DNA of 64,000 nucleotides from contig JAQUCP010000002.1 of the NCBI GenBank assembly GCA_028686135.1, positions 11,306-75,305 of the forward strand. Direction: 5' to 3'. Under the pieces are notes generated by a model. It saw only the letters and a list, made by a program, of their open reading frames with translations. It had not been told where the DNA came from and did not search any database. The position numbers and the translations under genes were made by a program. Position 1 is the first letter of the stretch; each line of letters begins with the position of its first letter. Source of the DNA: Bacteroidales bacterium (GTDB lineage: Bacteria > Bacteroidota > Bacteroidia > Bacteroidales > UBA12481). Positions 15,322-30,399 of this stretch are shown one piece after another.

Positions 15322-15851
15322 GATATGCCATGGCAATTGATACCCTTAAGTGTGTGGGATGCGGCGATTGTGTGGTCGCTTGCCAGACCGAAAATGAGGT
15401 GCCGATCGGTTTTTGCCGGGATTGGGTTGTAGAGGTGACTGATGGAACCTATCCGCAGCTTGAAATTGAGATTCGCTCGGAACGTTGCAACCACTGCGAA
15501 AATTCGCCCTGTGTTCGTTGCTGCCCTACCGGTGCAAGCCATTATGCCGAAGGTGGCATCGTATTGGTGACACAGAATAAGTGCATCGGTTGCGGAGCCT
15601 GCATTGCTAGTTGCCCGTATGATGCAAGATATTCGCATCCAAAGGGATATGTCGATAAATGCACATTCTGTATCCACCGGGTTAAAAAAGGGCTCGATCC
15701 AGCTTGTGTAGCAGTATGCCCAACTAGGTGTATGTATTTTGGGGATCTGGATGACCCTAAAAGCCCGGTCTCCATGGTGCTGAAAAACCGTAAATATAAA
15801 ACCCTGATCCCGGAAGCCGGGACCAAGCCTCATCTCTATTTCCTGATCTAA
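15318..15851 (+). CDS. PsrB-like 4Fe-4S electron-transfer subunit
   Basis: 177 aa. Cys groups CVGCGDCVVAC, CNHCENSPCVRCCP, CIGCGACIASCP and CTFC...CVAVCP. Confidence 0.85.
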   Translation: MRYAMAIDTLKCVGCGDCVVACQTENEVPIGFCRDWVVEVTDGTYPQLEIEIRSERCNHCENSPCVRCCPTGASHYAEGGIVLVTQNKCIGCGACIASCPYDARYSHPKGYVDKCTFCIHRVKKGLDPACVAVCPTRCMYFGDLDDPKSPVSMVLKNRKYKTLIPEAGTKPHLYFLI

Positions 15852-15877
15852 CCGATTTTTATAATGGATTCTTTATT

Positions 15878-16819
15878 ATGAGAGAAGAGATTATCGTTAG
15901 CGGCAGGATGAACCCCTTCATCGATCCGCATCTGAATATCTGGCATTGGCAAATCCCGACTTACCTTTTTCTGGGCGGTTTGGCTGCAGGAATTCTATTC
16001 TTTGCCGCCCTGTTTTACCTGCAAGGGAAAGAAGAGAAGTACCGTACGGCTGTTAGGGTTGCTCCTCTGATAGTTCCTATCTTGCTGGTGCTTGGACTAT
16101 TCGCTTTGTTGCTCGATCTGAAGCACAAACTCTACTTCTGGCAACTCTACACTACTATTCGCCTAGAATCCCCGATGTCATGGGGCGCCTGGACTTTAAT
16201 GGTCGTTACACCGTTGTCATTTATCTGGGCAGCCATCCATCTGCGTGATGTGTTCCCAAAATGGGATTGGAAGTATCAGTGGTTAAAGGACTTAGAGGCT
16301 TTCTTTATTCGATATAAACGACCAATGGCCTGGGTGATTGTGATCTTTTCGGTGATTCTGGGCGTCTATACCGGAATTCTCCTGTCGGCTTTCAATGCGC
16401 GACCTCTCTGGAATACCTCAATCCTCGGACCGCTGTTTCTGGTATCCGGATTCTCAACCGGGGCAGCAGCCATCATCCTGTTTTCGAAGAATCACGAAGA
16501 GCGAAAGACTTTTGCCAAAATCGACCTGCTGCTAATCGCGGTTGAGCTTTTCCTGATTATCCACCTGTTTATGGGTTTCCTAGCCAGTACTCAGGTTCAA
16601 ATAGATGCAGCAAACCTCTTCCTGGGCGGACCCTATACGGCTCCTTTTTGGATTCTGGTGGTAACGATGGGACTGGTTGTGCCGGCGCTCCTGGAAGTTC
16701 TGGAACTGCTGAAATACCGGATCCCAGTTTATATTCCTGCCATCCTCGTCATCTTTGGTGGATTGATGTTACGTTTTATCATCGTTTATGCCGGACAAGT
16801 GAGTCGTTGGATGTACTAA
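15878..16819 (+). CDS. nrfD: NrfD/PsrC-family quinol-interacting membrane subunit
   Basis: 313 aa with about 8 hydrophobic helices. It sits directly after the A and B subunits. Its size and pattern match polysulfide reductase PsrC/NrfD rather than a cytochrome b-type PhsC. Confidence 0.75.
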   Translation: MREEIIVSGRMNPFIDPHLNIWHWQIPTYLFLGGLAAGILFFAALFYLQGKEEKYRTAVRVAPLIVPILLVLGLFALLLDLKHKLYFWQLYTTIRLESPMSWGAWTLMVVTPLSFIWAAIHLRDVFPKWDWKYQWLKDLEAFFIRYKRPMAWVIVIFSVILGVYTGILLSAFNARPLWNTSILGPLFLVSGFSTGAAAIILFSKNHEERKTFAKIDLLLIAVELFLIIHLFMGFLASTQVQIDAANLFLGGPYTAPFWILVVTMGLVVPALLEVLELLKYRIPVYIPAILVIFGGLMLRFIIVYAGQVSRWMY

Positions 16820-16897
16820 GAATTGCTATAGTTAGATCGGTAAATGTAAGATAGACACAAAGTTAGAAAGTTAAAGATAGTTGAAATACAGATCAAA

Positions 16898-17428
16898 ATG
16901 GAAGAAAAACACAAAGACAGGTCACGGTCTTATCTGAATCCATACCTGGGAGGTGTTCTGCTGGGTCTGGTTCTGCTAGCCGCGAATTTTATTTCAGGGC
17001 GGGGCCTTGGAGCCAGTGGGGCAGTCAAAAGCGTTATCGTGGCAGCCACTCAGACGATAGCTCCTGCCCATGTTGAGAAAAATGCCTACTACCATGATTA
17101 CATGCAAGAGCACGATAAGCCACTCAAAAGCTGGTTGGTGTTCCAGATGGCAGGGGTGTTGGTGGGTGGTTTTATTTCCGGGGCCTTGTGGGGTCGACTA
17201 AAACTCAAGGTGGAGCACAGCCCCAAGATCACCTCTCGTAAACGACTATTCCTCGCTGCAATCGGAGGCATTCTTTTCGGGTTTGGATCACAGCTTGGAA
17301 GGGGATGTACCAGCGGATCAGCCCTGAGCGGCATGGCTGTCCTCTCACTGGGCGGATTCATCACGATGGCTGCCATTTTCGGGACAGCGTTTGCTTTTGC
17401 TTATTTTTTTAGAAAAAACTGGATCTAA
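16898..17428 (+). CDS. YeeE/YedE-family (sulfur-compound transport) half-size membrane protein, first of a pair
   Basis: 176 aa, polytopic. Gly-rich re-entrant-type motifs SGRGLGASGA and GRGCTSGSALSG. Confidence 0.75.
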   Translation: MEEKHKDRSRSYLNPYLGGVLLGLVLLAANFISGRGLGASGAVKSVIVAATQTIAPAHVEKNAYYHDYMQEHDKPLKSWLVFQMAGVLVGGFISGALWGRLKLKVEHSPKITSRKRLFLAAIGGILFGFGSQLGRGCTSGSALSGMAVLSLGGFITMAAIFGTAFAFAYFFRKNWI

Positions 17429-17446
17429 TCGTAACTTAAGATCAAA

Positions 17447-18037
17447 ATGGGACCACTATTTGTTAATAATATCATCTCCGAAAACACGAACTTCCTCTTG
17501 GCATTCTTCATTGGAATTGGTTTTGGAATGGTACTCGAGAGCAGCGGATTTTCCTCCAGCCGAAAACTTGCCGGGATATTCTACGGATATGACACCGTTG
17601 TCCTGAAAGTTTTCTTCACCGCAGCCCTGACAGCCATGCTAGGTTTGCTTTTTATGAGCCTGTTTGGTTGGATAGACCTGAGCTTGGTCTATGTTAACCC
17701 AACGTATCTCACCTCTGCCATTATTGGAGGCGCAGTCATGGGCGTGGGATTTATCATCGGTGGATTTTGCCCGGGGACCAGCTTCTGCGGGGCAGCTATC
17801 GGAAAAATCGATGCGATGGTTTTTGTCGGCGGACTCTTTCTGGGAATCATCCTCTTTTCAGAAACTTATCCGCTCTGGGAAAAGATCTACCTCGCAGGAT
17901 TTAAGGGCAGCCCCAAACTTAGTGAATCTCTAGGCCTGTCTGATGGATTACTGGCACTGGGAGTGATCCTGATGGCCGTGGCCATGTTCTACGTGGCAGA
18001 ATGGGCAGAGAGAAAATTCCCTCGGGAAGAGTATTAA
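17447..18037 (+). CDS. YeeE/YedE-family half-size membrane protein, second of a pair
   Basis: 196 aa, polytopic. Motifs LESSGFSSSRKLAG and GGFCPGTSFCGAAIG. It lies 18 nt after the first half. Confidence 0.75.
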   Translation: MGPLFVNNIISENTNFLLAFFIGIGFGMVLESSGFSSSRKLAGIFYGYDTVVLKVFFTAALTAMLGLLFMSLFGWIDLSLVYVNPTYLTSAIIGGAVMGVGFIIGGFCPGTSFCGAAIGKIDAMVFVGGLFLGIILFSETYPLWEKIYLAGFKGSPKLSESLGLSDGLLALGVILMAVAMFYVAEWAERKFPREEY

Positions 18038-18054
18038 CCGCTAATAGAAAAGAA

Positions 18055-18675
18055 ATGAAACCAAGAGTGATTTTATCGATTGCCGTTGTGGGATTGGGCC
18101 TGATCATTGCTGCTGTCCCGAAAAACACGACGCAACCCTATAAACTGACTGCAAATCAGTTGCTTGATGAGGCTAATAGTAGTTATCAGTTCTTTAGTCC
18201 GGATGAGCTGGCCGACCTTCTCATCAAGAAAGATCCATCCATCCTGTTGATTGACGTTCGGGATCCGGAAGAGTTCGCTACATACAATCTTCCAGGATCG
18301 ATCAACATTCCTTTTTCCGACCTGCTCAATAGCGAATGGACTGGAACACTGAATCAGGATGTCAGGATCAATATCTTCTATTCCAACGGGACCTTGTTGG
18401 CTAATCAGGCGTGGATGATCACCCGACAGCTCGGCTATCTAAACAATTATGTGCTGGAAGGAGGACTGAACTATTGGGTCGAAACCATCATGAATCCTGA
18501 TAAGCCGCAGTCAACCAGTCCAAACGAAGAATTGGCGCGTTATGATTTCCGAAAAGCGGCAGGGGCTGCACTGGGTGGGGGGGCAGCAATTGCACCGGTT
18601 GTAGAAGAATCCAGCACACCCCGACCAGTTATTATTCGGAAACCGGCGAAAAAGAAAGTGTCAGGGGGATGCTGA
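18055..18675 (+). CDS. membrane-anchored rhodanese-like domain protein lacking the loop cysteine, with a C-terminal ...VSGGC tail
   Basis: Start moved to ATG 18055 (MKPRVILSIAVVGLGLIIAAV, N-terminal anchor). Rhodanese fold pattern LLIDVRDPEEFATYNLPGSINIP ... INIFYSNGTLLANQAW ... VLEGGLNYW. A Ser sits where the active-site Cys is expected. An Ala/Gly/Pro/Lys-rich tail ends in the only Cys of the protein. Confidence 0.75.
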   Translation: MKPRVILSIAVVGLGLIIAAVPKNTTQPYKLTANQLLDEANSSYQFFSPDELADLLIKKDPSILLIDVRDPEEFATYNLPGSINIPFSDLLNSEWTGTLNQDVRINIFYSNGTLLANQAWMITRQLGYLNNYVLEGGLNYWVETIMNPDKPQSTSPNEELARYDFRKAAGAALGGGAAIAPVVEESSTPRPVIIRKPAKKKVSGGC

Positions 18676-18678
18676 TAA

Positions 18679-19806
18679 TCAGCTCCATCTACCGCTGATG
18701 GGTGTACCACAATCCGGACAGTGACCATCTTTAAGCTTGTTAAATTCAATGCTAAATCCTGATCGCTTGATTAACAGGGTTTTGCATTTAGGACAATAGG
18801 TGTCTTCACCCCCAATACCCGGAACATTGCCGATATAAACATACTTAAGGCCAGCTTTCACCGCAATCTCTTTGGCTCGTGTTAAGGTATTCAACGGTGT
18901 TGCCGGTAGGCGGGTTAATTTATACTGCGGATGAAAGCGGCTGAAATGCAGTGGGTAATCAGCAAATCCTTCCTTTGCCAGCCAATCACACATCCGGCTG
19001 ATCTGATCAAAATCATCAGTCCAGCTGGGAATGATCAAGTTGGTGATTTCCAACCAAACGCCCTCGTTGCGGAAGGTCTTTAGGGTCTCCAGCACAGGCT
19101 CCAACGTGCCACCGGTGAGCTTAAGATATACAGCCGGGTCGAAGGTTTTGAGATCAATATTGGCTGCATCGATCACCGTACAGAGCTCACGCAGTGGAGC
19201 TTGGTTAATATACCCATTTGATACCATGATGTTACGAAGTCCCTTTGAACGGGCAATCGTGGCCGTATCATACATATATTCAAAAAACGTGATAGGCTCG
19301 GTATAGGTATAGGCTATCGAGGTACAATCATGCTGTAAAGCAGAAGCCACAACAGCTTCCGGACTGGCCGACTGGTTCCGGGTTTGTGTTGGACTGGCCT
19401 GACTGATTTCCCAGTTTTGGCAGTTTAGGCAGGCGAAATTGCATCCAGCGGTGGCTATGCTAAAGGCCAGAGAGGTGGGGTAAAAGTGTAGTAAAGGCTT
19501 CTTCTCAACGGGATCGATGTGTACGGCGCAAGGATTCCCGTAAGCCATCGTGTAGAGTTTGCCGTTGCGGGCAATTCGGTTTCTGCAATCACTCAGTTCG
19601 CCATCTTTAAGCGTGCATTCGTTCGGACAAAGCTGGCATTTAACGCCTCGGGGAGTCGCGATATAATGACGGGCTTCCTTTTCTCCCGGTTCGATATTTC
19701 GAGGTTCCATGATGTTGAAATTTTCTGATTTAAGGGTGTTCCAGGCTGATAAACAGGTGTATCCACCTGCCATGAGAGTGTATTTAATAAAGCTTCTTTT
19801 GTCCAT
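18679..19806 (-). CDS. AmmeMemoRadiSam-system radical SAM enzyme (PflA-like)
   Basis: 375 aa. Radical SAM motif CNFACLNC. N-terminal extra Cys cluster CQLCPNEC...C. C-terminal zinc-ribbon-like CPKC...CPDC. Tat-like N-terminus MDKRSFIKYTLMAGG. TAATG overlap with the upstream gene. Confidence 0.8.
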   Translation of the reverse strand: MDKRSFIKYTLMAGGYTCLSAWNTLKSENFNIMEPRNIEPGEKEARHYIATPRGVKCQLCPNECTLKDGELSDCRNRIARNGKLYTMAYGNPCAVHIDPVEKKPLLHFYPTSLAFSIATAGCNFACLNCQNWEISQASPTQTRNQSASPEAVVASALQHDCTSIAYTYTEPITFFEYMYDTATIARSKGLRNIMVSNGYINQAPLRELCTVIDAANIDLKTFDPAVYLKLTGGTLEPVLETLKTFRNEGVWLEITNLIIPSWTDDFDQISRMCDWLAKEGFADYPLHFSRFHPQYKLTRLPATPLNTLTRAKEIAVKAGLKYVYIGNVPGIGGEDTYCPKCKTLLIKRSGFSIEFNKLKDGHCPDCGTPISGRWS

Positions 19807-22322
19807 TACGTTTTCTTCATTCGGGCTGTGATCAATAGAATAAGCCAGACAACCAAACTCGATAAAGTTATGATTATGGCTCCAAACAGCATGCCAGTAA
19901 TTGGGATGATCACCAAAGGGAACACGATCGCTCCGGTGCCTGCACCTAATAGATCATATCCGTAAAGCCTGTTTTGCTTGATTTTTGATTCCACCATCTG
20001 CCGACTTAATCCGGCGAAAAAAATCCCGGTAGCTGCAGCTATTGTGAAGCCTATGACCAAGAGAACGAGAACAGGGACAAAAGCTGGTCCTTTGTGATTC
20101 GCTAATACCGGTAGCAGAATGGCTAGCAATCCTGATGAAAGGAAGAAAAGCAATAGTGCCTGGTTGGTGCGGGATCGATCGCTTTCTCCTGGTAACCTCC
20201 GGTAAAAAAGACTGCCCATGGCAAGTCCGGCCATGAAAATCCCGAGGAATAGCCCAGATAACTGATAGATAGCTCCGGCTAATGTTTGTAGCAGGAACAG
20301 GAGCAAGATCTCCGACCCGGATGCCGCAGCTCCAAGAAGAAAAATTCCGGTTAATCCACCGTGACCCGTCCAGAGCCCGGCAACAATTACCAGAACAGTC
20401 AGGATCAGGACCGGCCAGACCGCTTTCTGCGGAAAGAGTCCCAGCCACCAGGCGATCTGACTCATGCTGGCGACCGGTCGCAGCACCGAGTTGGAGATCG
20501 TGGCTGAAGAGACCTCTTGGTTAACAAGCTCCGTTCGGTCTCCGAAGAGGCGCTCATTAAAATACCCGCGATTAACGTACAGATTATCAATGCCTAACTC
20601 ATCAATCCTGGTCAGAATATCCAGCCGAAGACTATCATTTGAAAGCAGTAAGTAGCTATTTTCTCCAGGCAAGACCAGGGCATGCTTGAATGATTCTAGT
20701 CCGGCACGACGCACGGTACTCAGCACCCCAGCTGCCTCCTTAGAGACATAGTTTGCCGTACCCGGCATGATAGAAGTGATGACACCGTCCTCTGCAAGAA
20801 TCATTCTGAGTTGATTAAAGAATTCAGTAGAGTAGAATCGGTTGAGATGAAGGTTATATGGACCCGGCAGATTAATCAGGATGGCATCATAGACTTGGTC
20901 TGCATGCCGGACCCAATAGGCAGGGGTCTTTCTGATCTGCCGGATCTTATCCCCTGTCGCAGATAGTCCGAGATGTTCTGCCTGTTCAATAAGATGGGGA
21001 TCAGTAGCGATGAAATCAATTGATCGGGGTGAAAATTTCTCCAGAGCTTCTTCGATTCCGGAAAGTAATCCCCCGATAACGAGGATATTAGCAGGTTGGT
21101 CGAGCTGAGCAAGAGTGAACGAGGCGATCTCTTCATTGACGATGATATTGCCCGCCGAATGTACCAGCAGACCGTTCTCGTAGATATTCTCCTGGCCACC
21201 TGTTTCCGTAACGGTAATTCGTCCGGCGGTTCCAGGTCGGGTGGCCAAAACTGTTTCGTTGGGATGAAACATCCGGGTGATAACCCGATCAAGATCCACA
21301 CTATGCACACTAACGCCTATGGCTAAGACGATCACTGTCAGGATAAGACCTGATGTTTTGTTTTGTTTCGAGAGAATCGTCAGGAGTAGAGTTACCGCTG
21401 CAGCCCCAAGAAACAAAACGGTGATTGATGACATCCCCAACAAGATGGTCAGGGTGACTATCAGGCCTCCGATAGCTCCTCCGGCACTTTCCCATCCGTA
21501 GAAATGCCGGAGACGACTCCCGTCAGGCTGAAAAACTCTGGCACTCCAAGTGAAAGCAAATCCACTCAGAAAGCAGTATGGTAGCAGGATGATACAGGTG
21601 AGAGCAGTAAAGGGTAATGGACCGGCTTCGATTCCCGGAGCAAAAAACTGCTTTTTTAAAAGATAAAGCAAGGGCATCAGAACCAGCGGCAGAAATATCA
21701 GGGTTCTGATGAGCAGGATAACTTTCGCTGATGATTTGGCCTTACCCAATTGATCCGAAACCCGTGCTACCGATCCGGTGATGGAACCGGTACCAGTGAT
21801 GGCCATCCAAAGCAGAAAAATTATCGAAAGGGTTAACTCATTGCCTTGAAACAGGGCAAGTAATTCGCGAATCATGACCGTCTGAACCAATATCGCCGAA
21901 AACCCAATCACTAATGGAATGCTGACAAAGTTGATGTTATTGATCTGGATGCCTGTAAGTGATTTATTATCAGTTGGAAAGGGGTCTTCGCTTGTTGTCA
22001 GTTGCTTCGTAAAAGGCACAAAATAGAGAAAGTGCCAGCTTAAATGGAACAAACCGGTCAAACTCATCCCGATACCAAAATTGACGTGCCAGCGCAACAC
22101 TTTTTCAGTCCAAGGTACCTCCAGCTTGTAATTGATCTGGATAGCCATCAGGATACCTAAGACGATGGTGACCAGGAAAGTCAGCAATAGGGCATAATTC
22201 CATATTTGGCGGTGTAGTTTGCTGGATAGAATTTCTAGGTGGCTAAATAGCAAGCTGATGAAATAGAGAATCAAAAGGCCGGCAGTGATCGGAATAAGCA
22301 GATAGGGAGCATTAGTGATCAT
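19806..22322 (-). CDS. polytopic membrane protein with a central spermidine-synthase-like (Rossmann/SAM-MTase fold) domain
   Basis: 838 aa. At least 14 hydrophobic segments are split into N- and C-terminal blocks. The central soluble part contains ANILVIGGLLSGIEEALEKF and YDAILINLPGPYNLHLNRFYSTEFFNQLRMILAEDGVI, which resembles aminopropyltransferase strands. TAATG overlaps at both ends. Confidence 0.7.
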   Translation of the reverse strand: MITNAPYLLIPITAGLLILYFISLLFSHLEILSSKLHRQIWNYALLLTFLVTIVLGILMAIQINYKLEVPWTEKVLRWHVNFGIGMSLTGLFHLSWHFLYFVPFTKQLTTSEDPFPTDNKSLTGIQINNINFVSIPLVIGFSAILVQTVMIRELLALFQGNELTLSIIFLLWMAITGTGSITGSVARVSDQLGKAKSSAKVILLIRTLIFLPLVLMPLLYLLKKQFFAPGIEAGPLPFTALTCIILLPYCFLSGFAFTWSARVFQPDGSRLRHFYGWESAGGAIGGLIVTLTILLGMSSITVLFLGAAAVTLLLTILSKQNKTSGLILTVIVLAIGVSVHSVDLDRVITRMFHPNETVLATRPGTAGRITVTETGGQENIYENGLLVHSAGNIIVNEEIASFTLAQLDQPANILVIGGLLSGIEEALEKFSPRSIDFIATDPHLIEQAEHLGLSATGDKIRQIRKTPAYWVRHADQVYDAILINLPGPYNLHLNRFYSTEFFNQLRMILAEDGVITSIMPGTANYVSKEAAGVLSTVRRAGLESFKHALVLPGENSYLLLSNDSLRLDILTRIDELGIDNLYVNRGYFNERLFGDRTELVNQEVSSATISNSVLRPVASMSQIAWWLGLFPQKAVWPVLILTVLVIVAGLWTGHGGLTGIFLLGAAASGSEILLLFLLQTLAGAIYQLSGLFLGIFMAGLAMGSLFYRRLPGESDRSRTNQALLLFFLSSGLLAILLPVLANHKGPAFVPVLVLLVIGFTIAAATGIFFAGLSRQMVESKIKQNRLYGYDLLGAGTGAIVFPLVIIPITGMLFGAIIITLSSLVVWLILLITARMKKT

Positions 22323-23872
22323 TACGGAAGCCTCTTTTCTTGAAATTCCAACGCTTCATAGACGTAAATTTCTGCCTGTTTCCAACCATCCCAACCAATT
22401 CCCGCCTTGTCACGAGCACAATGCCCAAGAAACTCCTCCAGATTCCAACCGGTCTCGCGCGCGACTTGAGGTAAAAAGGTTCCCGATTGAAATCCCTCTT
22501 TGATGTAAATGCCATGCTTTCCTAGAACTATTTCATTGATATCCTTTATTTTACGCATTGGAGTTAAAACGGAGATTTCAATGTGAATATCAGATAGCTC
22601 CTTGGGTTGTACTGGTAAAAACCGGTTATCTTGAGTCGAGGAGGCGATCGCCAATTGTTGAACAAGCTGATAGAGAGGCCTGTCTGCTTCAAATGATCCG
22701 ATACAACCACGCAATTTCTCGCCAACCTTAAGGGTCACAAAGGCTCCGGCTTTCGTTTTAAGATTTGGACTATACTGTTTGGGTGTAAGGGATGGAGTTT
22801 CTCGCCGACGGATATAGGATTCAAGCGTGTTGCGTGCGATTCTGAGTAGCTCTTCCCTGTCATCCTGGGTTAGAATGAACCCTTTTTCCTGTTTTTCAAC
22901 AATTGTAATAGCGTGATAACCAACTACTCCCGACTTGTCGCCGTACAATTTGCTGTCGCCCGAATTTTGATAATCAATGCGGACAAACTCCAAAGCTCGG
23001 TTATGGGTTGTCAGGTGAAGCAGGGTTAACCCTGATGGCCAGGCGCACATGCTGGTGACCAGTCCGGGAATCCGTTTTTGTTCGTTTGATTTCAGCACTG
23101 CAAGAAAATCATCGATAGAATTGCTACAGAAGGCTTCTGCAGTGGCCTGGTCAACCTGAATGGCCTGCTCGTAAGGAGGATAATGCGAAAAGTCAGCACT
23201 CAGGATGAAAAGATTCTCAGGGGTAAAATATGGCTTAAGTTCTTCCGCAACAGCTTCGCTGACCGAGGTCACCTGACTGGCGAGGACGATAGGAACGATT
23301 TTGAAGGGGTTTTTGATGACTGTTTGTAGAAAGGGCAATTGGACTTCAATACTATGTTCCTCCATATGAGCTTCTGGATCATCGGTAAAGAAATCATTGC
23401 TCGTAGCTAACTTCTTAGAAATCTCTTTATTAACCTCAACTCTCCCCAGTGGTGTGATGTAATCCCCTGAGGTGTAAACCGATGCTTTACCGAGGCTGAC
23501 GCGATGAGAGGAGGCCAGGATAAAGATGTTCTGATACGGGTAATTTGGATCGATCTGATTGAAACCTGATGCTGCCACACTGCCGGAAAAAACATATCCC
23601 GCGTGGGGAACCACCAAAGCTCTAACAAATCCCTTGTTTGAGGCGGGTTTGGCATTAGCCAGTAAACCATTGATGGTTTTAGACAGTTCGACTGGATTGG
23701 CGGGATAGAATGTCCCGGCCACAACAGGCTGGCGGTCTTTGTTTCTTGCTTGCATGCTGGTCTGGTTGAATGATAAAGGTACACTCAAAAGAAAAAGGAA
23801 AAAAAGCATAACCCAACACCTCGGGCCAAAAACCCGATTTAACTCGACTTGACTAGTTCTTACTATGCTCAT
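22322..23872 (-). CDS. fusion protein: Memo-like (AmmeMemoRadiSam protein B) N-domain + AMMECR1 (protein A) C-domain, with an N-terminal signal/anchor
   Basis: Memo part: VVPHAGYVFSGSVAASGF, EHSIEVQLPFL, LSADFSHY and VVGYHAI. AMMECR1 part: GAFVTLKVGEKLRGCIGS, HIEISVLTP and GTFLPQVA. I placed the start at ATG 23872 (MSIVRTS...) and ATG 23809 (MLFFLFLL...) is an alternative. The track's TTG start at 24025 is rejected. Confidence 0.8.
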   Translation of the reverse strand: MSIVRTSQVELNRVFGPRCWVMLFFLFLLSVPLSFNQTSMQARNKDRQPVVAGTFYPANPVELSKTINGLLANAKPASNKGFVRALVVPHAGYVFSGSVAASGFNQIDPNYPYQNIFILASSHRVSLGKASVYTSGDYITPLGRVEVNKEISKKLATSNDFFTDDPEAHMEEHSIEVQLPFLQTVIKNPFKIVPIVLASQVTSVSEAVAEELKPYFTPENLFILSADFSHYPPYEQAIQVDQATAEAFCSNSIDDFLAVLKSNEQKRIPGLVTSMCAWPSGLTLLHLTTHNRALEFVRIDYQNSGDSKLYGDKSGVVGYHAITIVEKQEKGFILTQDDREELLRIARNTLESYIRRRETPSLTPKQYSPNLKTKAGAFVTLKVGEKLRGCIGSFEADRPLYQLVQQLAIASSTQDNRFLPVQPKELSDIHIEISVLTPMRKIKDINEIVLGKHGIYIKEGFQSGTFLPQVARETGWNLEEFLGHCARDKAGIGWDGWKQAEIYVYEALEFQEKRLP

Positions 23873-23893: not shown

Positions 23894-23937
23894 CACACCC
23901 CACACCCCACAACTTGACAACTTGACAACTTGACAAC
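23894..23937. repeat. short tandem repeats: (CACACCC)x2.4 followed by (ACAACTTG)x3.6
   Basis: Read directly: cacaccc cacaccc cac at 23894..23910, then acaacttg acaacttg acaacttg acaac at 23909..23937. The repeats end 37 nt upstream of the Memo-AMMECR1 ATG at 23872 and lie just downstream of the IS remnant. Confidence 0.9.
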
Positions 23938-23942
23938 CTCCT

Positions 23943-24416
23943 TCACACCCCCACAATCCTCCTCCAAAAGCTCCGCTTTCTCCTGTCGGAGTATGTCTTG
24001 TATGTTTTATCGTCGGTTTTGCCAAATTGTTTAAGACTGATACTTCGGATCAGTGCCAGTCCCTCAGCTCCGATCCTCCTCCTGAAGTTGGATAGTTCTT
24101 TGGTTTGGAACGGCCGCTTCGTTTGAAAGTGGACTTCGCCGCAAAAATATTGCCAGTAAGGATTTTCGGGCCAGAGCTTCATGACCTTTTCGTCGCTCAA
24201 ACTAAAGCGTTCCTTGAGGAGCATCATGCCGATCAACTTCCGAGGCGGGATCGAAGGTCTTCCTCTTTGGGAATAAAACGGGGTGAAGTGTTCTTCCACC
24301 TGCTCCCAGTCGATGTGTGTAGCACCGACAAAAAGTTCATGCTTGGAGTCTAGGAGTCGTTCCAGCGGTACCTCAAAGATATCCAGCTGGGCTTTATTTC
24401 GTGTGCGTCCTAACAT
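23943..24416 (-). pseudogene. IS5-family transposase remnant (N-terminal DUF772-type domain only; DDE catalytic domain missing)
   Basis: The 157-aa ORF MLGRTRNKAQLDIFEVPLERLLDSKHELF...RGRPSIPPRKLIGMMLLKERFSLSDEKVMKLWPENPYWQYFCGEVHFQ...FRRRIGAEG matches the typical N-terminus of IS5/IS1182-type transposases. Similarity seems to end near LKQFGK (about 24030), and the rest of a ~330-450 aa transposase is absent. Confidence 0.75.
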
Positions 24417-25442: not shown

Positions 25443-25940
25443 ATGGTCAATATAGGAGTTTTGTCTGACACACATGGCTATCTCGATGATGCTGTAATGC
25501 GATTTTTCGAGAACTGTGATGAGATCTGGCATGCCGGCGATGCCGGATCAACCGATGTGCTTGATACCCTGGCGGCTATCAAGCCTTTGAGAGGAGTTTA
25601 TGGTAATATCGATGATTGGGATGTCAGAAGAATGGTGCCTGAGTTCCTGGAGTTCACTATCGAAGAGGTGCCTGTCCTGATGACACACATCGGATTCTAT
25701 TCAGGCCGTTATATTCCGGAGGTGGTGCGCAGATTTCGTGCATTCCAGCCCAAACTCTTTGTGTGCGGCCATTCTCACATCTTAAAGGTCAAATATGATC
25801 ATGACTTCAAACTGCTTCAGGTGAATCCGGGAGCTGCGGGAAAGTCAGGTTATCAACAGTTTAGAACTGCTGTTCGGTTTCAAATCAATGGCGATCGGAT
25901 CGAAGAGCTCGAAGTGCTAGAACTACCGCTCCACCCGTAA
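25443..25940 (+). CDS. YfcE/MJ0936-family metallophosphoesterase
   Basis: 165 aa. Motifs GVLSDTHG, HAGD, GNID and VCGHSH. Confidence 0.85.
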   Translation: MVNIGVLSDTHGYLDDAVMRFFENCDEIWHAGDAGSTDVLDTLAAIKPLRGVYGNIDDWDVRRMVPEFLEFTIEEVPVLMTHIGFYSGRYIPEVVRRFRAFQPKLFVCGHSHILKVKYDHDFKLLQVNPGAAGKSGYQQFRTAVRFQINGDRIEELEVLELPLHP

Positions 25941-28900
25941 CCGTCGAAGAAATTCCTGGACCTGACGCTCCTGGCCCGGATAGAATTGATACGGTTGCTC
26001 ATCTGGCCCACCGTCAACTGTTCGCTTCGATTCCTTGACATCTTTCATAAGTGTATTGAATCGATCAAAGGTTGGCCCGGAAATGCATTGCATCACTCCC
26101 CGACTATAAGTGAAGAAGAAGTACCCTTGCCGGTCGATCTCCAGATAAAGATTGAATGATCCGCCACCTCTACGGTGAACAATCTCCAGATACCCGTTCA
26201 GTCGCTTGTTCACCTGAGTCCCCTGGATCGCTCCCAACCCCAACTTCCCAACCGACTGATAGGTTCCGGTTTCCGGATTCCAACGCAGCTGGATATCGGT
26301 GAACACCAAGGTATGCAAAAACTCCTCGGGAATCCTCCTCCAGCGACCGGCCAGGCTCAGCTGATTCAATAGCTCCTCAGATCTGACCTTGCCTGCCAAC
26401 TCCCGTAGGTTCTGCCTGAAACCTGCAGTACTATAATTGACCGGCTCCAGCGTAGACGCACTATTGATGGATCGGGCCATGTATTCAAGAGCTTTATTAT
26501 CAAGATAAAAATCCATCGTCAGAATCAGGTCGGAACTAATGGTATCCTGGGTAAGATCATGACTCAATCGTCCAGCTCCTTTGATTTTTACTTGTCCCAG
26601 ATCAACTTGAGGATCTATTATTCCAGTGGCTTCTGTTGTGCAATTTCCTGGATTCCAGGTTAATAAAGGACCACCTAGGTCGGGATTTTTAAGTTTTGCC
26701 GTGGAGGTGATTCGATAGACCTGAGCCCCTTGGTCATACCATAGCTTACCTGATGCTTTCAGCACTGGCACATCGCTGTAACGCAGATGAGATCCGGCAA
26801 AAGTTGAGTATAATTCCACTGGCTGATTCGCCAAATAAAAGCCATTAAACAGCGTGTTTCCTTCATCGTTAATGGTGGTAGAATCAATGGGTATACAAAC
26901 CGAATCCGGGTAAATAATGTCTTCAAAATGAATCCACTGGAGAGGAATGTTTCTGCAGGGTTGCATCATCTGGGCATAGCCGTTGAATAACAGCGGAACT
27001 CGACTATTATCCCAAAATACCTCTCCATAGTAGCGAAATGCCGGACTGAGCGCAAAGTCTTCTCCTTTAGGTACTGATCCGTCCGCACTGGAAATCCCCT
27101 TATCTCCCGAACTGATTGATGGAAACCAGATTGAAAAATCCCTGCCGGCGATATCGGTATAGTGATAATTACCACTGCCAGTGTAGGTTCGGTGGTCAGT
27201 GATTTCAATAATGGCCTGGCTGAAACGGTGGGGAAGGGAGGTATCGCGACTGGCCATTGTTGCGTTGGTCAGACGATCAATCTTCCCGCCCTCGGAGATG
27301 GAAAGCACCTCCTGATCGGGATAGATCCTGACATCAGCGACATCAATGAACGTGACTCCAGTGGCCTCAAGATGACTGTTGCTCAAACCATAGATTGCCT
27401 CTTTGGCCGGTATCTGAAGGGAGTCTGACTTGCTTCGTGCCTGGCAAAGAACGGGGGATTCCATCTTCAGGGTCTCTGTATCCAGATCGATTTCAACCGA
27501 TTTTGGCAAGGCTTTGAACTGGTTTCGATGAAAAATCACCTGGGAGGATGTGTCAATTCCGAAAAGTTGTGCACGCTGATTTTTTAGATTGATAGAAGCA
27601 TTGAAGTTTAATGCTTCCAGGTTGCCCTCATTTTCCTTCTGTTGACTTCCAAGAATTTTCAGGAGTGACTCATCAGCAGTAAAGGAGTCGGCTAAAAACA
27701 GAATGCTTTCGGATGTGACATGATAGCGACCGTATTGAACTTTTCCTGATCCTCCTAATCCCTTGGGAGTCAGAATGATCTCTCCATCCAATTCCACTCC
27801 CTCGTACATGAGAAAGGGTCCTGTAGTCGAGCTTGCAATCAATTTATTCTGACCGGGTTGCCAGGTTACCGGGAGCTTTTCACCGCTGATCCCGGGATGC
27901 CCCGGACTATCGTCATTCTGTGTGATAGCAAATGTGTTGACTAGTGATGTCACCTGATCGGGCAAAAAGAGAAACGTATCGGATTCCATCCGTGATTCAA
28001 GGTACTCCAAAGCTCCAGTCCCAATCAATCCGGCCTGGCTCATCTGGATTTTTTCGAAGAACTTACCCTTTCCATGGTACACTGGGATCCCTTCTTCTGG
28101 AGTTTCAAGCGCTTTGAACCCCATAGTGTGGTCTTCCAAGTACCTCATTTCTAATTCTATCGGAGGAAAGATGCCGGCGGTAACGAACTGTCCGGGCAGC
28201 CGGAGCGAGTCGGCAAATGCGGGATCGTACATGTTGGCCATAACGAATGGGTCAATCCTGAAATAGAAAGACTCACGAGGATAGGCCCCGCCAACAATAT
28301 CCGGATGGTCGAAATAGATATAGGCAAACGTGTCGGTGGCAAATTGCGGATATTCTGGATAATCCTCTGCCTTTAATCCGGATTTGTTATTGGCCTGATC
28401 AATGTACAAGGCTCCTTGAGTACTCTCAATGGCTGATGCCACCTCGATCAATTGTTTTCCTGATCCATCGGAGGAGTCTTGTTTAAAAACGTTGAAATTC
28501 AGTTGGTTGAGGTTATTTAAACGGATGGCAAAGTCCTGATAGGAGAAAACAAAATTTTCTCCTGACAATTTCAGTACACCTCCGTGAATCTCTCCATCGA
28601 ACAGAATGTCTCGTCCTTTCAAAAGAGTGACGGTCTGTTCCTGAGGGTAAATGATCACATTTCTCGTCTGGCTTAAAATGATTTCCTGCACTCCCACTAC
28701 TTTCATCTTCCCATTTTGGATATCCAAGCGGGCATTGATGATGGGATGTTTGGTGACCGATTCAAACCGCAGACTGTCATAATCCTGTATAGTGGCATTC
28801 TTTTCGATAAAATTGTAAGACCGGTCCAGCACCTCAATGACTTTGGTATCAGGATTATATCGCACAAATCCCATAAATGAGAGTCGCAAAAGCATCTGCT

Positions 28901-30356: not shown

Positions 30357-30363
30357 CAGCAGT

Positions 30364-30399
30364 AAAAAAAGGCAATCCAAGGTATAACGGATTGCCTTT
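30364..30399 (-). terminator. Rho-independent terminator downstream of tpiA
   Basis: Perfect 11-bp stem aaaggcaatcc (30368..30378) pairs with ggattgccttt (30389..30399) around a 10-nt loop. On the minus strand it is followed by a T7 run (A-run 30364..30370 on plus). Confidence 0.8.

What the first reader, a model, noticed from the sequence alone, without database searches (positions are those of the whole stretch)
18679..23872. AmmeMemoRadiSam operon extended by a fourth, giant membrane component
**Seen in the sequence.** Three minus-strand genes have stop and start codons that overlap by one base. The overlap is TAATG at 22320..22324 and again at 19804..19808, so they are almost certainly one translationally coupled unit.
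- Gene 1 fuses a Memo-like domain (VVPHAGYVFSGSVAASGF, EHSIEVQLPFL, LSADFSHY) to an AMMECR1 domain (GAFVTLKVGEKLRGCIGS).
- Gene 3 is the PflA-like radical SAM partner (CNFACLNC plus extra Cys clusters).
- Gene 2, wedged between them, is an 838-aa polytopic membrane protein with a spermidine-synthase-like Rossmann domain.

**Established knowledge.** The AMMECR1 / Memo / radical-SAM trio is a comparative-genomics-defined system whose substrate and product are unknown. A membrane SpeE-like protein is not part of that definition.

**Inference.** The membrane protein is a dedicated fourth component. It could be a scaffold, a substrate carrier or a SAM/polyamine-related partner, and it points to an envelope- or membrane-located target. 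If so, this is a concrete handle on an orphan system that is conserved from archaea to humans.
Basis: partly seen in the sequence, partly recalled or inferred. Interest (0 to 1): 0.8.

Follow-up and report, generated by a model that had tools for sequence, protein, structure and literature searches.

The report
Exported AmmeMemoRadiSam system with membrane partner
An orphan enzyme trio (Memo, AMMECR1 and a radical SAM enzyme) occurs here in a version whose soluble parts carry export signals and that nearly always includes one large membrane protein, which suggests this version works on the outer face of the cell membrane, an unusual place for radical SAM chemistry.

Summary
Three minus-strand genes with TAATG stop/start overlaps encode:
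- a Memo-AMMECR1 fusion;
- an 838-aa polytopic membrane protein with a spermidine-synthase (SpeE) fold;
- an AmmeMemoRadiSam radical SAM enzyme.

All three system HMMs score above their curated cut-offs.

- All 28 loci found through the membrane protein carry the radical SAM gene beside it. At least 24 also carry Memo-AMMECR1.
- Of 69 loci found through the radical SAM enzyme with enough upstream DNA, 58 carry the membrane gene.

- The radical SAM enzyme has a Tat-type signal in 101 of 104 cases.
- The Memo-AMMECR1 fusion has a Sec-type signal in 69 of 72 cases.
- Charge bias places the SpeE-like domain in the periplasm.
- Close relatives that lack the membrane gene (L034, L130, L131) also lack both signals.
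- The SpeE-like domain lacks the aminopropyltransferase Asp residues.
- The membrane protein's N-terminus resembles DUF4405 haem-b cytochromes, below threshold. Relatives carry NapH-like Fe-S modules instead.
- A separate exported lineage uses a DsbD/CcdA-like membrane gene instead.

Best reading: an extracytoplasmic, membrane-docked variant of the system. Its membrane partner acts as a platform and probably as an electron conduit. Substrate and SAM supply remain unknown.

The parts
22322..23872 (-). Gene 1: Memo-AMMECR1 fusion, 516 aa, with an N-terminal hydrophobic export signal. The signal lies at about aa 22-36 (MLFFLFLLSVPLSF, nt about 23765-23809). The Memo domain is aa 47-323 (nt 22904-23734). 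The AMMECR1 domain is aa 341-510 (nt 22343-22852).
   Evidence: TIGR04336 225 bits and TIGR04335 169.9 bits. Pfam Memo and AMMECR1. PDB relatives are MEMO1, MM0484 and PH0010. H90, H173, D227, H230, C276 and R388-G-C390 are at least 97% conserved in 68 sequences, and the two domains are fused in 67 of 70 loci. A hydrophobic N-terminal region is present in 69 of 72 relatives.
19806..22322 (-). Gene 2: 838-aa polytopic membrane protein.
- aa 1-100 (nt 22023-22322): 3-TM module with invariant H37, H79 and H93, DUF4405-like.
- aa 134-341 (nt 21300-21923): 7 TM helices. Two of them (TM9-10) are an insertion absent from most relatives.
- aa 357-606 (nt 20505-21254): SpeE-fold domain, predicted periplasmic.
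- aa 630-837 (nt 19812-20435): 7 TM helices.
   Evidence: AlphaFold2 pLDDT 78, pTM 0.78. Foldseek top hits are all spermidine synthases, TM-score normalised to target 0.55-0.66. K+R in loops sums to 19.5-21.9 on the predicted cytoplasmic side against 4.0-4.1 on the side of the SpeE-like domain. DUF4405 hits are below threshold in 11 of 11 N-modules; DUF4405 was the best-scoring family in 9. No NCBIfam model reaches its cut-off.
18679..19806 (-). Gene 3: AmmeMemoRadiSam radical SAM enzyme, 375 aa.
- Tat-like signal MDKRSFIKYTLMAGGYTCLSAW at aa 1-22 (nt 19741-19806).
- Family core at aa 54-374 (nt 18685-19647).
- CX3CX2C at aa 122-129 (nt 19420-19443).
- Further invariant Cys clusters at aa 57-74 and 338-366.
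   Evidence: TIGR04337 371.5 bits against a cut-off of 220; the model starts at residue 54. Invariant R4, F6 and Cys residues in alignment A3. The [KR][RK]xF motif occurs in 101 of 104 relatives, 9 of them with RR. PflA is the closest solved structure.
22320..22324 (-). TAATG stop/start overlap between gene 1 and gene 2.
   Evidence: Read directly.
19804..19808 (-). TAATG stop/start overlap between gene 2 and gene 3.
   Evidence: Read directly.
23943..24416 (-). 157-aa ORF consisting only of a DUF772 (transposase N-terminal) domain, immediately upstream and co-directional. It may be an accessory or regulatory gene of the close clade. It is not an IS remnant.
   Evidence: PF05598 E 4.3e-16. It sits at the same position, with the same length (155-158 aa) and 65-76% identity, in 14 related loci, including the membrane-less L034.
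23894..23937 (.). Two short tandem repeats in the 70-nt spacer between the DUF772 ORF and gene 1: an 8-mer in 3.6 copies and a 7-mer in 2.6 copies.
   Evidence: Function unknown. Conservation in other loci was not examined.

Best explanation
**What it is.** This is an extracytoplasmic, membrane-docked variant of the AmmeMemoRadiSam system.

**Shown.** The membrane gene is an almost constant neighbour of a clade of these systems. In that clade the radical SAM enzyme carries a Tat-type signal and the Memo-AMMECR1 fusion carries a Sec-type signal.

**Inferred from sequence.**
- The Fe-S enzyme is exported folded by Tat, and the fusion protein by Sec.
- Both meet the large periplasmic SpeE-fold domain of the membrane protein.
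- That domain has lost the residues needed for aminopropyl transfer. It has its own invariant LPxPxxxxLNRFY motif at the old active site.

**Proposed mechanism.** The membrane protein is the docking platform that holds the enzymes at the outer face of the membrane. It would present a membrane-embedded or envelope substrate there. Its optional redox modules would pass electrons across the membrane to the exported radical SAM enzyme or to the AMMECR1 cysteine. Those modules are the DUF4405-like 3-TM His module here, a NapH-like Fe-S module fused or adjacent in relatives, and small His-bearing 2-TM ORFs in others. SAM would either travel bound to the folded enzyme or be used as a regenerated cofactor.

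**Not determined.** The substrate and the product remain unknown.
For: **Co-inheritance.**
- All 28 loci found through the membrane protein have the rSAM gene next to it. At least 24 have the order Memo-AMMECR1, membrane gene, rSAM.
- Of 69 rSAM-derived loci with at least 2.6 kb of upstream DNA, 58 have the membrane gene. In 47 of the 56 loci with at least 4.5 kb upstream, all components are present. Memo-AMMECR1 is co-directional in 32 and divergent in 15.
- The link persists at 27-29% identity and in the order rSAM, Memo-AMMECR1, membrane gene.
- No other gene family is conserved across the loci.

**Export signals.**
- The rSAM has the [KR]RxF[LI]K motif plus a mildly hydrophobic stretch in 101 of 104 cases, 9 with true RR.
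- The Memo-AMMECR1 N-terminus is hydrophobic in 69 of 72 cases.
- The TIGR models begin only after these N-terminal extensions.
- tatC and tatA lie next to the cassette in L099 and L109.

**Natural controls.**
- L034 is 64-69% identical to the window proteins. L130 and L131 are about 50% identical. All three lack both signals and the membrane gene.
- Canonical signal-less systems lack the membrane gene.

**Topology.** Loop K+R sums are 19.5-21.9 against 4.0-4.1, in close and distant relatives alike. This puts the SpeE-like domain outside the cytoplasm.

**Redox link.**
- The N-module hits DUF4405 in 11 of 11 sequences, always below threshold; DUF4405 was the best-scoring family in 9.
- DUF4405 proteins are experimentally shown haem-b cytochromes proposed to carry out extracytosolic electron transfer (PMC11334425).
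- A Fer4_5 module is fused in L109 and adjacent in L112.
- A separate exported lineage has a DsbD_2/CcdA-like gene as its fourth gene in 5 of 5 loci.

**Catalytic integrity.** The catalytic residues of Memo, AMMECR1 and the rSAM enzyme are intact.
Against: - No radical SAM enzyme is known to me to work in the periplasm. There is no known source of SAM or of low-potential electrons there.
- Most signals are KR rather than RR. No signal-peptide predictor was available, so localisation rests on motif, hydrophobicity and charge bias.
- Every DUF4405 match is below Pfam's gathering score (16-24 bits against 26.7). One 3-TM unit with three His would need to dimerise to bind haem.
- Many linked relatives, about 700 aa long, have no redox module at all.
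- Ten Tat-signal rSAM genes stand alone, with no partner within 3-7 kb.
- In L021 and L025 the rSAM gene lies about 2 kb downstream of the membrane gene and no Memo-AMMECR1 was detected. In L021 a 607-aa ORF that looks like a translational GTPase lies between them.
- The window protein has Ala where 35 of 37 relatives keep the nucleotide-ribose Glu. This argues against a SAM-handling role for the domain.
- No physical interaction was modelled.
Confidence: 0.65

Rival explanations
1. The membrane protein is the substrate, not a helper. The PflA-like radical SAM enzyme, with Memo and AMMECR1, installs a post-translational modification or cofactor on the periplasmic SpeE-like domain. The three enzymes would then be a maturation system for a membrane enzyme.
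For: - The rSAM enzyme is closest to protein-activating enzymes: PflA and the YjjW activase family.
- Strict co-occurrence fits as well.
- The SpeE-like domain has a family-specific invariant motif at its old active site.
Against: - Signal-less systems, and the exported lineage that uses a DsbD_2-type partner, work without this protein, so it cannot be the general substrate.
- No invariant Gly, Cys or Tyr target stands out in the soluble domain. The invariant residues there are G367, E397, P488, N494 and N611.
Confidence: 0.12
2. The membrane protein supplies SAM. Its TM bundle would export SAM, and the Rossmann domain would hand it to the exported radical SAM enzyme.
For: - The domain has a class-I methyltransferase-like SpeE fold.
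- The dcSAM-specific Asp of GGGDG is replaced by a hydrophobic residue in all members. In principle this could admit SAM's carboxylate.
- A periplasmic rSAM enzyme needs SAM from somewhere.
Against: - The window protein has lost the ribose-binding Glu (A439). The adenine-binding Asp position is not conserved in the close clade.
- The exported lineage with a DsbD_2-type partner has no such domain.
- No transporter family matched the TM regions.
Confidence: 0.1
3. Gene 2 is a genuine membrane-bound polyamine aminopropyltransferase that is merely co-transcribed with the trio.
For: - Pfam Spermine_synth scores above its gathering score.
- PRK03612 gives E 1.7e-25.
- JGI names relatives 'spermidine synthase'.
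Against: - All equivalog HMMs score far below their cut-offs: 89 against 472, 32 against 260, 20 against 250.
- The Asp of GGGDG is absent in 37 of 37 members. DSSDP is LPGP in the window clade.
- The domain is predicted to be periplasmic, away from dcSAM.
Confidence: 0.04
4. The adjacency is inherited synteny with no functional meaning.
For: Many loci come from related Bacteroidales MAGs. These also share unrelated neighbours such as RsmE, the DUF772 ORF and a large secreted protein.
Against: - The link survives across phyla, in three gene orders, and down to 27% identity.
- The Aminicenantes copies are closer to the window (rSAM 72% identical) than most Bacteroidales copies are. This suggests the cassette moves as a unit.
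- The membrane gene and both signals are lost together in L034, L130 and L131.
Confidence: 0.02

Closest known systems
AmmeMemoRadiSam system (TIGR04335 protein A/AMMECR1, TIGR04336 protein B/Memo, TIGR04337 radical SAM). The AMMECR1, rSAM and dioxygenase-like gene association was described by Balaji and Aravind 2007 (PMC2034487).
   Same: All three families are present above their curated cut-offs, are adjacent and have intact catalytic motifs. The Memo-AMMECR1 fusion was already noted in 2007.
   Different: A fourth, membrane gene sits between the partners. Both soluble proteins have N-terminal export signals that the family models do not cover. The 2007 prediction of an RNA base modification does not fit a periplasmic set. 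Burroughs et al. 2019 (J Biol Chem 294:10211) extended the gene contexts of Memo, but I could not read it. It may already list this association.
Spermidine synthase / polyamine aminopropyltransferase (PF01564, TIGR00417), including the membrane-anchored PRK03612 type
   Same: The fold is the same: an N-terminal beta domain plus a Rossmann domain (Foldseek E 2e-8, TM-score normalised to target about 0.65). The Pfam domain scores above its gathering score.
   Different: It is embedded between 10 and 7 TM helices and predicted to be periplasmic. The dcSAM Asp and, in this clade, the catalytic Asp are absent. Equivalog scores are far below their cut-offs.
DUF4405 / MsrQ / PepSY-like haem-b membrane cytochromes that feed electrons to extracytosolic enzymes (PMC11334425)
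   Same: The N-terminal 3-TM module has invariant His residues. DUF4405 is hit in all 11 sequences tested and is the best-scoring family in 9. It is fused to a partner of predicted periplasmic redox enzymes.
   Different: All scores are below the gathering threshold. It is one 3-TM unit with 3 His, not a 6-TM unit with 4 His. The module is absent from about half of the family.
NapH / NosR / RdhC-type membrane Fe-S proteins (PF12801), and DsbD/CcdA (PF13386). I know both as transmembrane suppliers of reducing power to periplasmic enzymes.
   Same: In relatives these modules occupy the place of the membrane partner. Fer4_5 is fused in L109 and adjacent in L112. A DsbD_2 gene follows AMMECR1 in 5 of 5 loci from Omnitrophota-type and related MAGs.
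   Different: The window protein has neither domain. The analogy is by position in the operon, not by homology.
Tat-exported Fe-S and molybdo-enzymes, such as the PsrA-like protein in this same window
   Same: The signal has the same form: (S/T)-R-R-x-F-L-K followed by a weakly hydrophobic stretch, placed on a cofactor-containing protein.
   Different: The cargo is a radical SAM enzyme. I know of no exported example. The first Arg is Lys in 91 of 101 cases.

Membership tests
AmmeMemoRadiSam system | Protein B (Memo-like) matches TIGR04336 above its cut-off | tested here: met
   225 bits against a cut-off of 26, residues 47-323.
AmmeMemoRadiSam system | Protein A (AMMECR1) matches TIGR04335 above its cut-off | tested here: met
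   169.9 bits against 99, residues 341-510. The LRGCIG motif is conserved.
AmmeMemoRadiSam system | The radical SAM partner matches TIGR04337 above its cut-off and has CX3CX2C | tested here: met
   371.5 bits against 220. C122, C126 and C129 are invariant.
AmmeMemoRadiSam system | The three families are encoded together | tested here: met
   They lie in one co-directional block with overlapping stops and starts, with gene 2 inserted between them.
Spermidine synthase (aminopropyltransferase) | Equivalog HMM above its cut-off (TIGR00417, PRK00811, PRK03612) | tested here: not met
   19.9 against 249.55; 32.2 against 260; 89.4 against 472.
Spermidine synthase (aminopropyltransferase) | Asp of the GGGDG loop, which binds the dcSAM amine | tested here: not met
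   The loop is GGLLSG in the window. The position is hydrophobic in 37 of 37 relatives.
Spermidine synthase (aminopropyltransferase) | Catalytic Asp of D-S-S-D-P | tested here: not met
   The window has NLPGP. G is found at this position in the close clade, and D or E in 16 of 37 more distant members.
Spermidine synthase (aminopropyltransferase) | SpeE fold | tested here: met
   The top 50 Foldseek hits are all spermidine synthases or related aminopropyltransferases.
Tat substrate | Twin-arginine consensus followed by a mildly hydrophobic region | tested here: inconclusive
   The window has D-K-R-S-F-I-K. Relatives have KR in 91 cases and RR in 9. No dedicated predictor was available.
Tat substrate | Export depends on TatABC | not testable with these tools
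   Only circumstantial evidence exists: tatC and tatA are adjacent in L099 and L109.
DUF4405 haem-b cytochrome | Pfam PF14358 above its gathering score | tested here: not met
   16-24 bits against 26.7 in 11 of 11 N-modules, with full-length profile coverage; DUF4405 was the best-scoring family in 9.
DUF4405 haem-b cytochrome | Conserved His pairs that bind haem b | tested here: inconclusive
   H37, H79 and H93 are present in 20 of the 21 members of alignment A1 that have the module; P0053 has N at the H37 position. Haem binding was not tested.
MFS transporter (as in the name 'fused MFS/spermidine synthase') | Match to PF07690 | tested here: not met
   Neither the whole protein nor its TM segments match. 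Only unlinked relatives at about 25% identity carry PF07690.
Anti-phage defence systems (PADLOC) | Any PADLOC model | tested here: not met
   No hits for the four proteins.

The most novel reading that the evidence does not exclude
A radical SAM enzyme works outside the cytoplasm. It is exported folded by Tat. It docks with a Sec-exported Memo-AMMECR1 fusion on the periplasmic SpeE-fold domain of a dedicated polytopic membrane protein. It receives electrons through that protein's haem-b or Fe-S module. The set modifies a membrane-embedded substrate, for example an isoprenoid lipid, at the outer leaflet. If so, the long-sought substrate class of Memo and AMMECR1 is a membrane lipid reachable from either face, not RNA.
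Probability: 0.25. Interest if true: 0.9.

Novelty: new variant of a known kind. Interest (0 to 1): 0.74.

Why it matters
**An orphan system with a new handle.** Memo and AMMECR1 are conserved from archaea to humans and are linked to human disease. Their chemistry is unknown. The held literature contains no functional study of the bacterial system.

**What this variant adds.**
- It narrows where to look, namely the membrane and envelope.
- It supplies a physical handle, a membrane partner that should co-purify.
- It suggests what the enzymes need: a transmembrane supply of reducing power. Two unrelated kinds of membrane partner may have been recruited for that purpose.

**Biochemical significance.** An exported radical SAM enzyme would itself be a notable exception.

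**Scale and tractability.** The membrane family is large and has no curated NCBIfam model. At 50% clustering there are 1595 representatives at E ≤ 1e-30. A cultured carrier exists, Mangrovibacterium marinum DSM 28823 (L054).

Tried and rejected
**Searches that found nothing.**
- The alignment of 37 diverse membrane proteins was too divergent to seed a locus scan. A closer set was used instead.
- Foldseek found no structural match for the TM bundles. All of the top 50 hits were to the SpeE domain.
- Pfam on the separate TM segments gave only weak noise apart from DUF4405.
- There is no Rfam element in the window or upstream of the operon.
- The sigma-70 promoter and terminator scan was uninformative. 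Bacteroidota promoters are not covered.
- There are no PADLOC hits.
- There are no tat genes and no second copy of the system in the window.

**Inconclusive comparisons.**
- A profile comparison of the N-module with the small 2-TM ORFs of L113 and L115 was not significant (hhalign probability 1.5%). Those ORFs give only weak Sdh_cyt and cytochrome b561 hits.
- A lipobox reading of the invariant Cys18 in the rSAM signal was dropped. The -1 position is atypical, and the Cys is not conserved in the wider set.

**Literature.**
- Burroughs et al. 2019 could not be retrieved by DOI or PMC id.
- One paper search was wasted because 'memo' matched 'memory'.

**Open point.** The orphan Tat-signal rSAM loci (L038, L063, L077, L090) have no large membrane ORF nearby. 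I could not check whether their partners lie elsewhere in those genomes.


Full report
**1. Observation**

The region holds three minus-strand ORFs:
- gene 2 at 19806..22322, 838 aa;
- gene 3 at 18679..19806, 375 aa.

Both junctions read TAATG. All quoted peptide motifs are present.

NCBIfam places gene 1 in AmmeMemoRadiSam protein B (225 bits, cut-off 26) and protein A (169.9 bits, cut-off 99). It places gene 3 in the system's radical SAM family (371.5 bits, cut-off 220). Pfam agrees.

The closest solved structures are human MEMO1, the archaeal AMMECR1 proteins MM0484 and PH0010, and PflA.

Gene 2 matches Pfam Spermine_synth just above the gathering score, over residues 394-519. It misses every spermidine-synthase equivalog cut-off by a wide margin.

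**2. Is the membrane gene a real partner?**

*Starting from the membrane protein.* A scan of one genome per species returned 28 loci in MAGs labelled Bacteroidota, Aminicenantes, 'Eubacteriales' and delta proteobacterium.
- All 28 carry the radical SAM gene next to the membrane gene.
- At least 24 show the order Memo-AMMECR1, membrane gene, rSAM. This holds even where the membrane proteins are only 27-31% identical.
- L006 and L012 are cut off by a contig end upstream of the membrane gene.
- In L021 and L025 the rSAM gene lies about 2 kb downstream and no Memo-AMMECR1 was detected. In L021 a 607-aa ORF that looks like a translational GTPase lies between them.

*Starting from the radical SAM enzyme.* I examined the 80 closest loci, at 53-82% identity.
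- 69 have at least 2.6 kb of upstream DNA, and 58 of these carry the membrane gene.
- 56 have at least 4.5 kb upstream. Their composition is:

| Content | Loci |
|---|---|
| Full set, Memo-AMMECR1 co-directional | 32 |
| Full set, Memo-AMMECR1 divergent | 15 |
| Membrane gene and rSAM only | 2 |
| rSAM alone | 6 |
| Trio without the membrane gene | 1 |

*More distant homologues.* Metagenome contigs extend the link to membrane homologues at E 1e-56 to 1e-83.
- P0056 (L109) has the order rSAM, Memo-AMMECR1, membrane gene.
- P0051, P0060 and P0064 keep the order seen in the window.
- Still more distant SpeE-like membrane proteins have unrelated neighbours. These are P0068, P0079 (which carries MFS_1) and P0087.

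*Other conserved genes.* Clustering all ORFs of at least 90 aa from about 100 loci found only these three families to be widely conserved.

The Aminicenantes cassettes are closer to the window (rSAM 72% identical) than most Bacteroidales ones are. This suggests transfer of the cassette as a unit.

**3.

*Radical SAM enzyme.* The family HMM starts at residue 54 of gene 3. The extension before it reads MDKRSFIKYTLMAGGYTCLSAW.
- Across relatives, [KR]-R-x-F-[LI]-[KR] followed by a weakly hydrophobic Gly/Ala/Thr-rich stretch is nearly universal. R4 and F6 are invariant in alignment A3.
- The motif occurs in 101 of 104 N-termini: 91 with KR and 9 with RR.
- This is the Tat consensus. From my own knowledge, Lys at the first Arg position is a natural variant seen in Salmonella TtrB and the chloroplast Rieske protein.
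- The same window encodes a PsrA-like molybdoenzyme with a classical SRRDFIK signal, which points to a working Tat pathway in this organism.

*Memo-AMMECR1 fusion.* It carries an N-terminal hydrophobic stretch of about 14 residues before the Memo model begins, and 69 of 72 relatives do the same. That is too short for a TM anchor and typical of Sec signals.

*Tat genes.* In two loci (L099, L109) tatC and tatA lie directly beside the cassette.

**4. Natural controls**

- L034 has proteins 64-69% identical to the window's, closer than most signal-bearing loci. It keeps the same upstream DUF772 ORF but has no membrane gene. Its Memo-AMMECR1 starts MDRRASVAGSFYP and its rSAM starts MTMHDGVTPGERE. 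Both signals are gone.
- L130 and L131 (about 50% identical) repeat this pattern.
- L107/L116 and L117 carry a canonical, signal-less rSAM and Memo pair immediately upstream of a full exported set. The two kinds coexist.
- A scan seeded with that canonical rSAM enzyme gave 28 loci. Sixteen of them carry only a signal-less rSAM, and none of those sixteen has the SpeE-like gene.
- The correlation is strong but not absolute. Ten Tat-signal rSAM genes have no partner within 3-7 kb.

**5. Anatomy of the membrane protein**

The AlphaFold2 model has mean pLDDT 78 and pTM 0.78. It shows, in order:
- three TM helices (aa 9-96);
- a disordered, Lys/Arg-rich linker;
- seven TM helices (aa 134-341);
- a soluble domain (aa 357-606);
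- seven more TM helices (aa 630-837).

Most relatives lack TM9-10, so parity is preserved.

Foldseek matches the soluble domain only to spermidine synthases and related aminopropyltransferases, including their N-terminal beta domain.

Counting Lys and Arg in loops gives 19.5 to 21.9 on one side and 4.0 to 4.1 on the other. This holds in close and distant relatives alike. The SpeE-like domain lies on the charge-poor side, that is, the periplasmic side. Three independent predictions therefore agree on an extracytoplasmic assembly.

*Active-site residues.* I aligned the family to Plasmodium spermidine synthase.
- GGGDG is GGLLSG. The Asp position is hydrophobic in 37 of 37 family members.
- DSSDP is LPGP in the window clade.
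- The window protein has Ala where 35 of 37 relatives keep the ribose-binding Glu.
- In their place the family has an invariant LPxPxxxxLNRFY motif.
- Conserved polar residues sit at the predicted periplasmic ends of helices: RELLxxFxGNEL, and Q679/Y686.

It is SpeE-shaped but is not an aminopropyltransferase.

**6. Redox modules**

- The N-terminal 3-TM module has invariant H37, H79 and H93. It is present in 21 of 37 sampled relatives; 20 of the 21 keep all three His, and P0053 has N at the H37 position.
- It hits Pfam DUF4405 in 11 of 11 sequences over the full profile, always below the gathering score (16-24 bits against 26.7). DUF4405 is the best-scoring family in 9 of the 11. Weaker hits are to cytochrome b561 and ferric-reductase TM domains.
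- A DUF4405 protein was purified and shown to bind haem b, and was proposed to carry electrons to extracytosolic proteins (PMC11334425).
- Other linked members have other modules. L109 has a C-terminal NapH-like Fer4_5 fusion. L112 has a separate Fer4_5 gene nearby. L113 and L115 have an extra 80-89-aa two-TM, His-bearing ORF between the membrane gene and the rSAM gene. That ORF gives weak Sdh_cyt and cytochrome b561 hits and has no demonstrable homology to the N-module.
- A different lineage gives an independent hint. It comprises MAGs labelled Omnitrophota/Omnitrophica, Planctomycetia and Deltaproteobacteria (L122, L125-L129, L141). There the rSAM enzyme and the Memo-AMMECR1 fusion also carry N-terminal hydrophobic signals. 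The fourth gene is a DsbD_2/CcdA-like membrane protein (PF13386, E 3.7e-18). It is present in all five loci with enough downstream sequence.
- DsbD and CcdA are known transmembrane carriers of reducing power (my knowledge).

Signal-bearing AmmeMemoRadiSam sets therefore recruit a membrane partner of at least two unrelated kinds. One of those kinds has a known redox role.

**7. Mechanism**

*Shown:*
- conserved linkage of the membrane gene with the set;
- linked presence and absence of the signals and the membrane gene;
- intact catalytic residues in all enzymes: Memo H90, H173, D227, H230 and C276; AMMECR1 RGC390; rSAM CX3CX2C plus two further Cys clusters.

*Inferred:*
- export of both soluble proteins;
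- the periplasmic position of the SpeE-like domain.

*Proposed:*
- the membrane protein is the docking platform at the outer face of the membrane;
- through its accessory modules it is a route for electrons;
- the conserved periplasm-facing site presents a membrane or envelope substrate.

*The main difficulty* is SAM and low-potential electrons outside the cytoplasm. Two ways out are carriage of bound SAM through Tat, and use of SAM as a regenerated cofactor, as in lysine 2,3-aminomutase. Neither was tested.

*Rivals:*
- the membrane protein is the target of modification;
- it is a SAM exporter or dock;
- it is a true polyamine synthase;
- the adjacency is mere synteny.

Each is weighed in the Rival explanations section.

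**8. Comparison with what is known, and novelty**

- The trio and the Memo-AMMECR1 fusion were described by comparative genomics in 2007, with a predicted role in RNA base modification (PMC2034487).
- Kaur et al. 2020 cite 'recently-described Memo-Ammecr1 systems' from Burroughs et al. 2019. I could not obtain that paper. From memory, its abstract links Memo contexts to nucleotide-base and isoprenoid modification.
- No held paper discusses a membrane partner or exported forms.
- No NCBIfam model covers gene 2. Sources name its relatives 'hypothetical protein' or 'spermidine synthase'.
- The family is large. At 50% clustering there are 5250 representatives at E ≤ 1e-3 and 1595 at E ≤ 1e-30.

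I rate this a new variant of a known kind. The caveat is that the 2019 paper may already list the association.

**9. Verdict**

- Observation: confirmed.
- Interpretation: supported and sharpened.
- Interest: high. The finding gives an orphan, human-relevant system a location and a physical handle, and it predicts an exported radical SAM enzyme.

Noticed in passing
window 23943..24416 (-): A 157-aa ORF made only of a DUF772 transposase N-terminal domain. It looks like an IS5 remnant. However, it is conserved at the same spot, length (155-158 aa) and 65-76% identity in 14 related loci, directly upstream of Memo-AMMECR1. It may be a domesticated DNA-binding protein or regulator.
   Followed up: partly
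window 23894..23937: Two short tandem repeats in the 70-nt spacer just upstream of the gene 1 start codon: ACAACTTG in 3.6 copies and CACACCC in 2.6 copies.
   Followed up: no
L122, L125, L127, L128, L129 (for example L125:6908-10209): A separate lineage of signal-bearing AmmeMemoRadiSam sets, in MAGs labelled Omnitrophota/Omnitrophica, Planctomycetia and Deltaproteobacteria. Its fourth gene is a DsbD_2/CcdA-like membrane protein instead of the SpeE-like one.
   Followed up: partly
L109:52-6459 and L099:3470-10219: The cassette has the order rSAM, Memo-AMMECR1, membrane gene in L109 and membrane gene, rSAM, Memo-AMMECR1 in L099. In L109 the membrane protein is fused to a C-terminal NapH-like Fer4_5 module. 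tatC and tatA lie immediately beside the cassette in both loci.
   Followed up: partly
L113:6851-7093, L115:7026-7295: An extra 80-89-aa two-TM ORF with conserved His and RWGWIK motifs lies between the membrane gene and the rSAM gene. It gives weak Sdh_cyt and cytochrome b561 hits.
   Followed up: partly
window gene 2, residue 439 (nt about 21006-21008): The window protein has Ala where 35 of 37 relatives have the Rossmann-fold Glu that binds the nucleotide ribose. The 838-aa clade also has a two-helix insertion (TM9-10) that the relatives of about 785 aa lack.
   Followed up: partly
window 13093..18675 (+): A PsrABC-like set: a Tat-signal molybdopterin oxidoreductase, a 4Fe-4S subunit and an NrfD membrane subunit. 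It is followed by two half-size YeeE/YedE sulphur-transport genes and a rhodanese. This block converges on gene 3, with only 3 nt between the two stop codons.
   Followed up: partly
window 25923..30380 (-): A 1485-aa ORF with a signal-like N-terminus and no Pfam match. Homologues lie near the cassette in 11 related loci, for example L010:72-4523.
   Followed up: no
L038, L063, L077, L090 and six others: Tat-signal AmmeMemoRadiSam rSAM genes stand alone, with no Memo, AMMECR1 or SpeE-like gene within 3-7 kb. Their partners may lie elsewhere in those genomes.
   Followed up: partly
alignment A1 (all membrane SpeE-like proteins sampled): The charge bias puts the SpeE-like domain on the periplasmic side in the distant relatives as well. 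This includes relatives not linked to the system and named 'fused MFS/spermidine synthase'. That name may be misleading for the whole family.
   Followed up: partly
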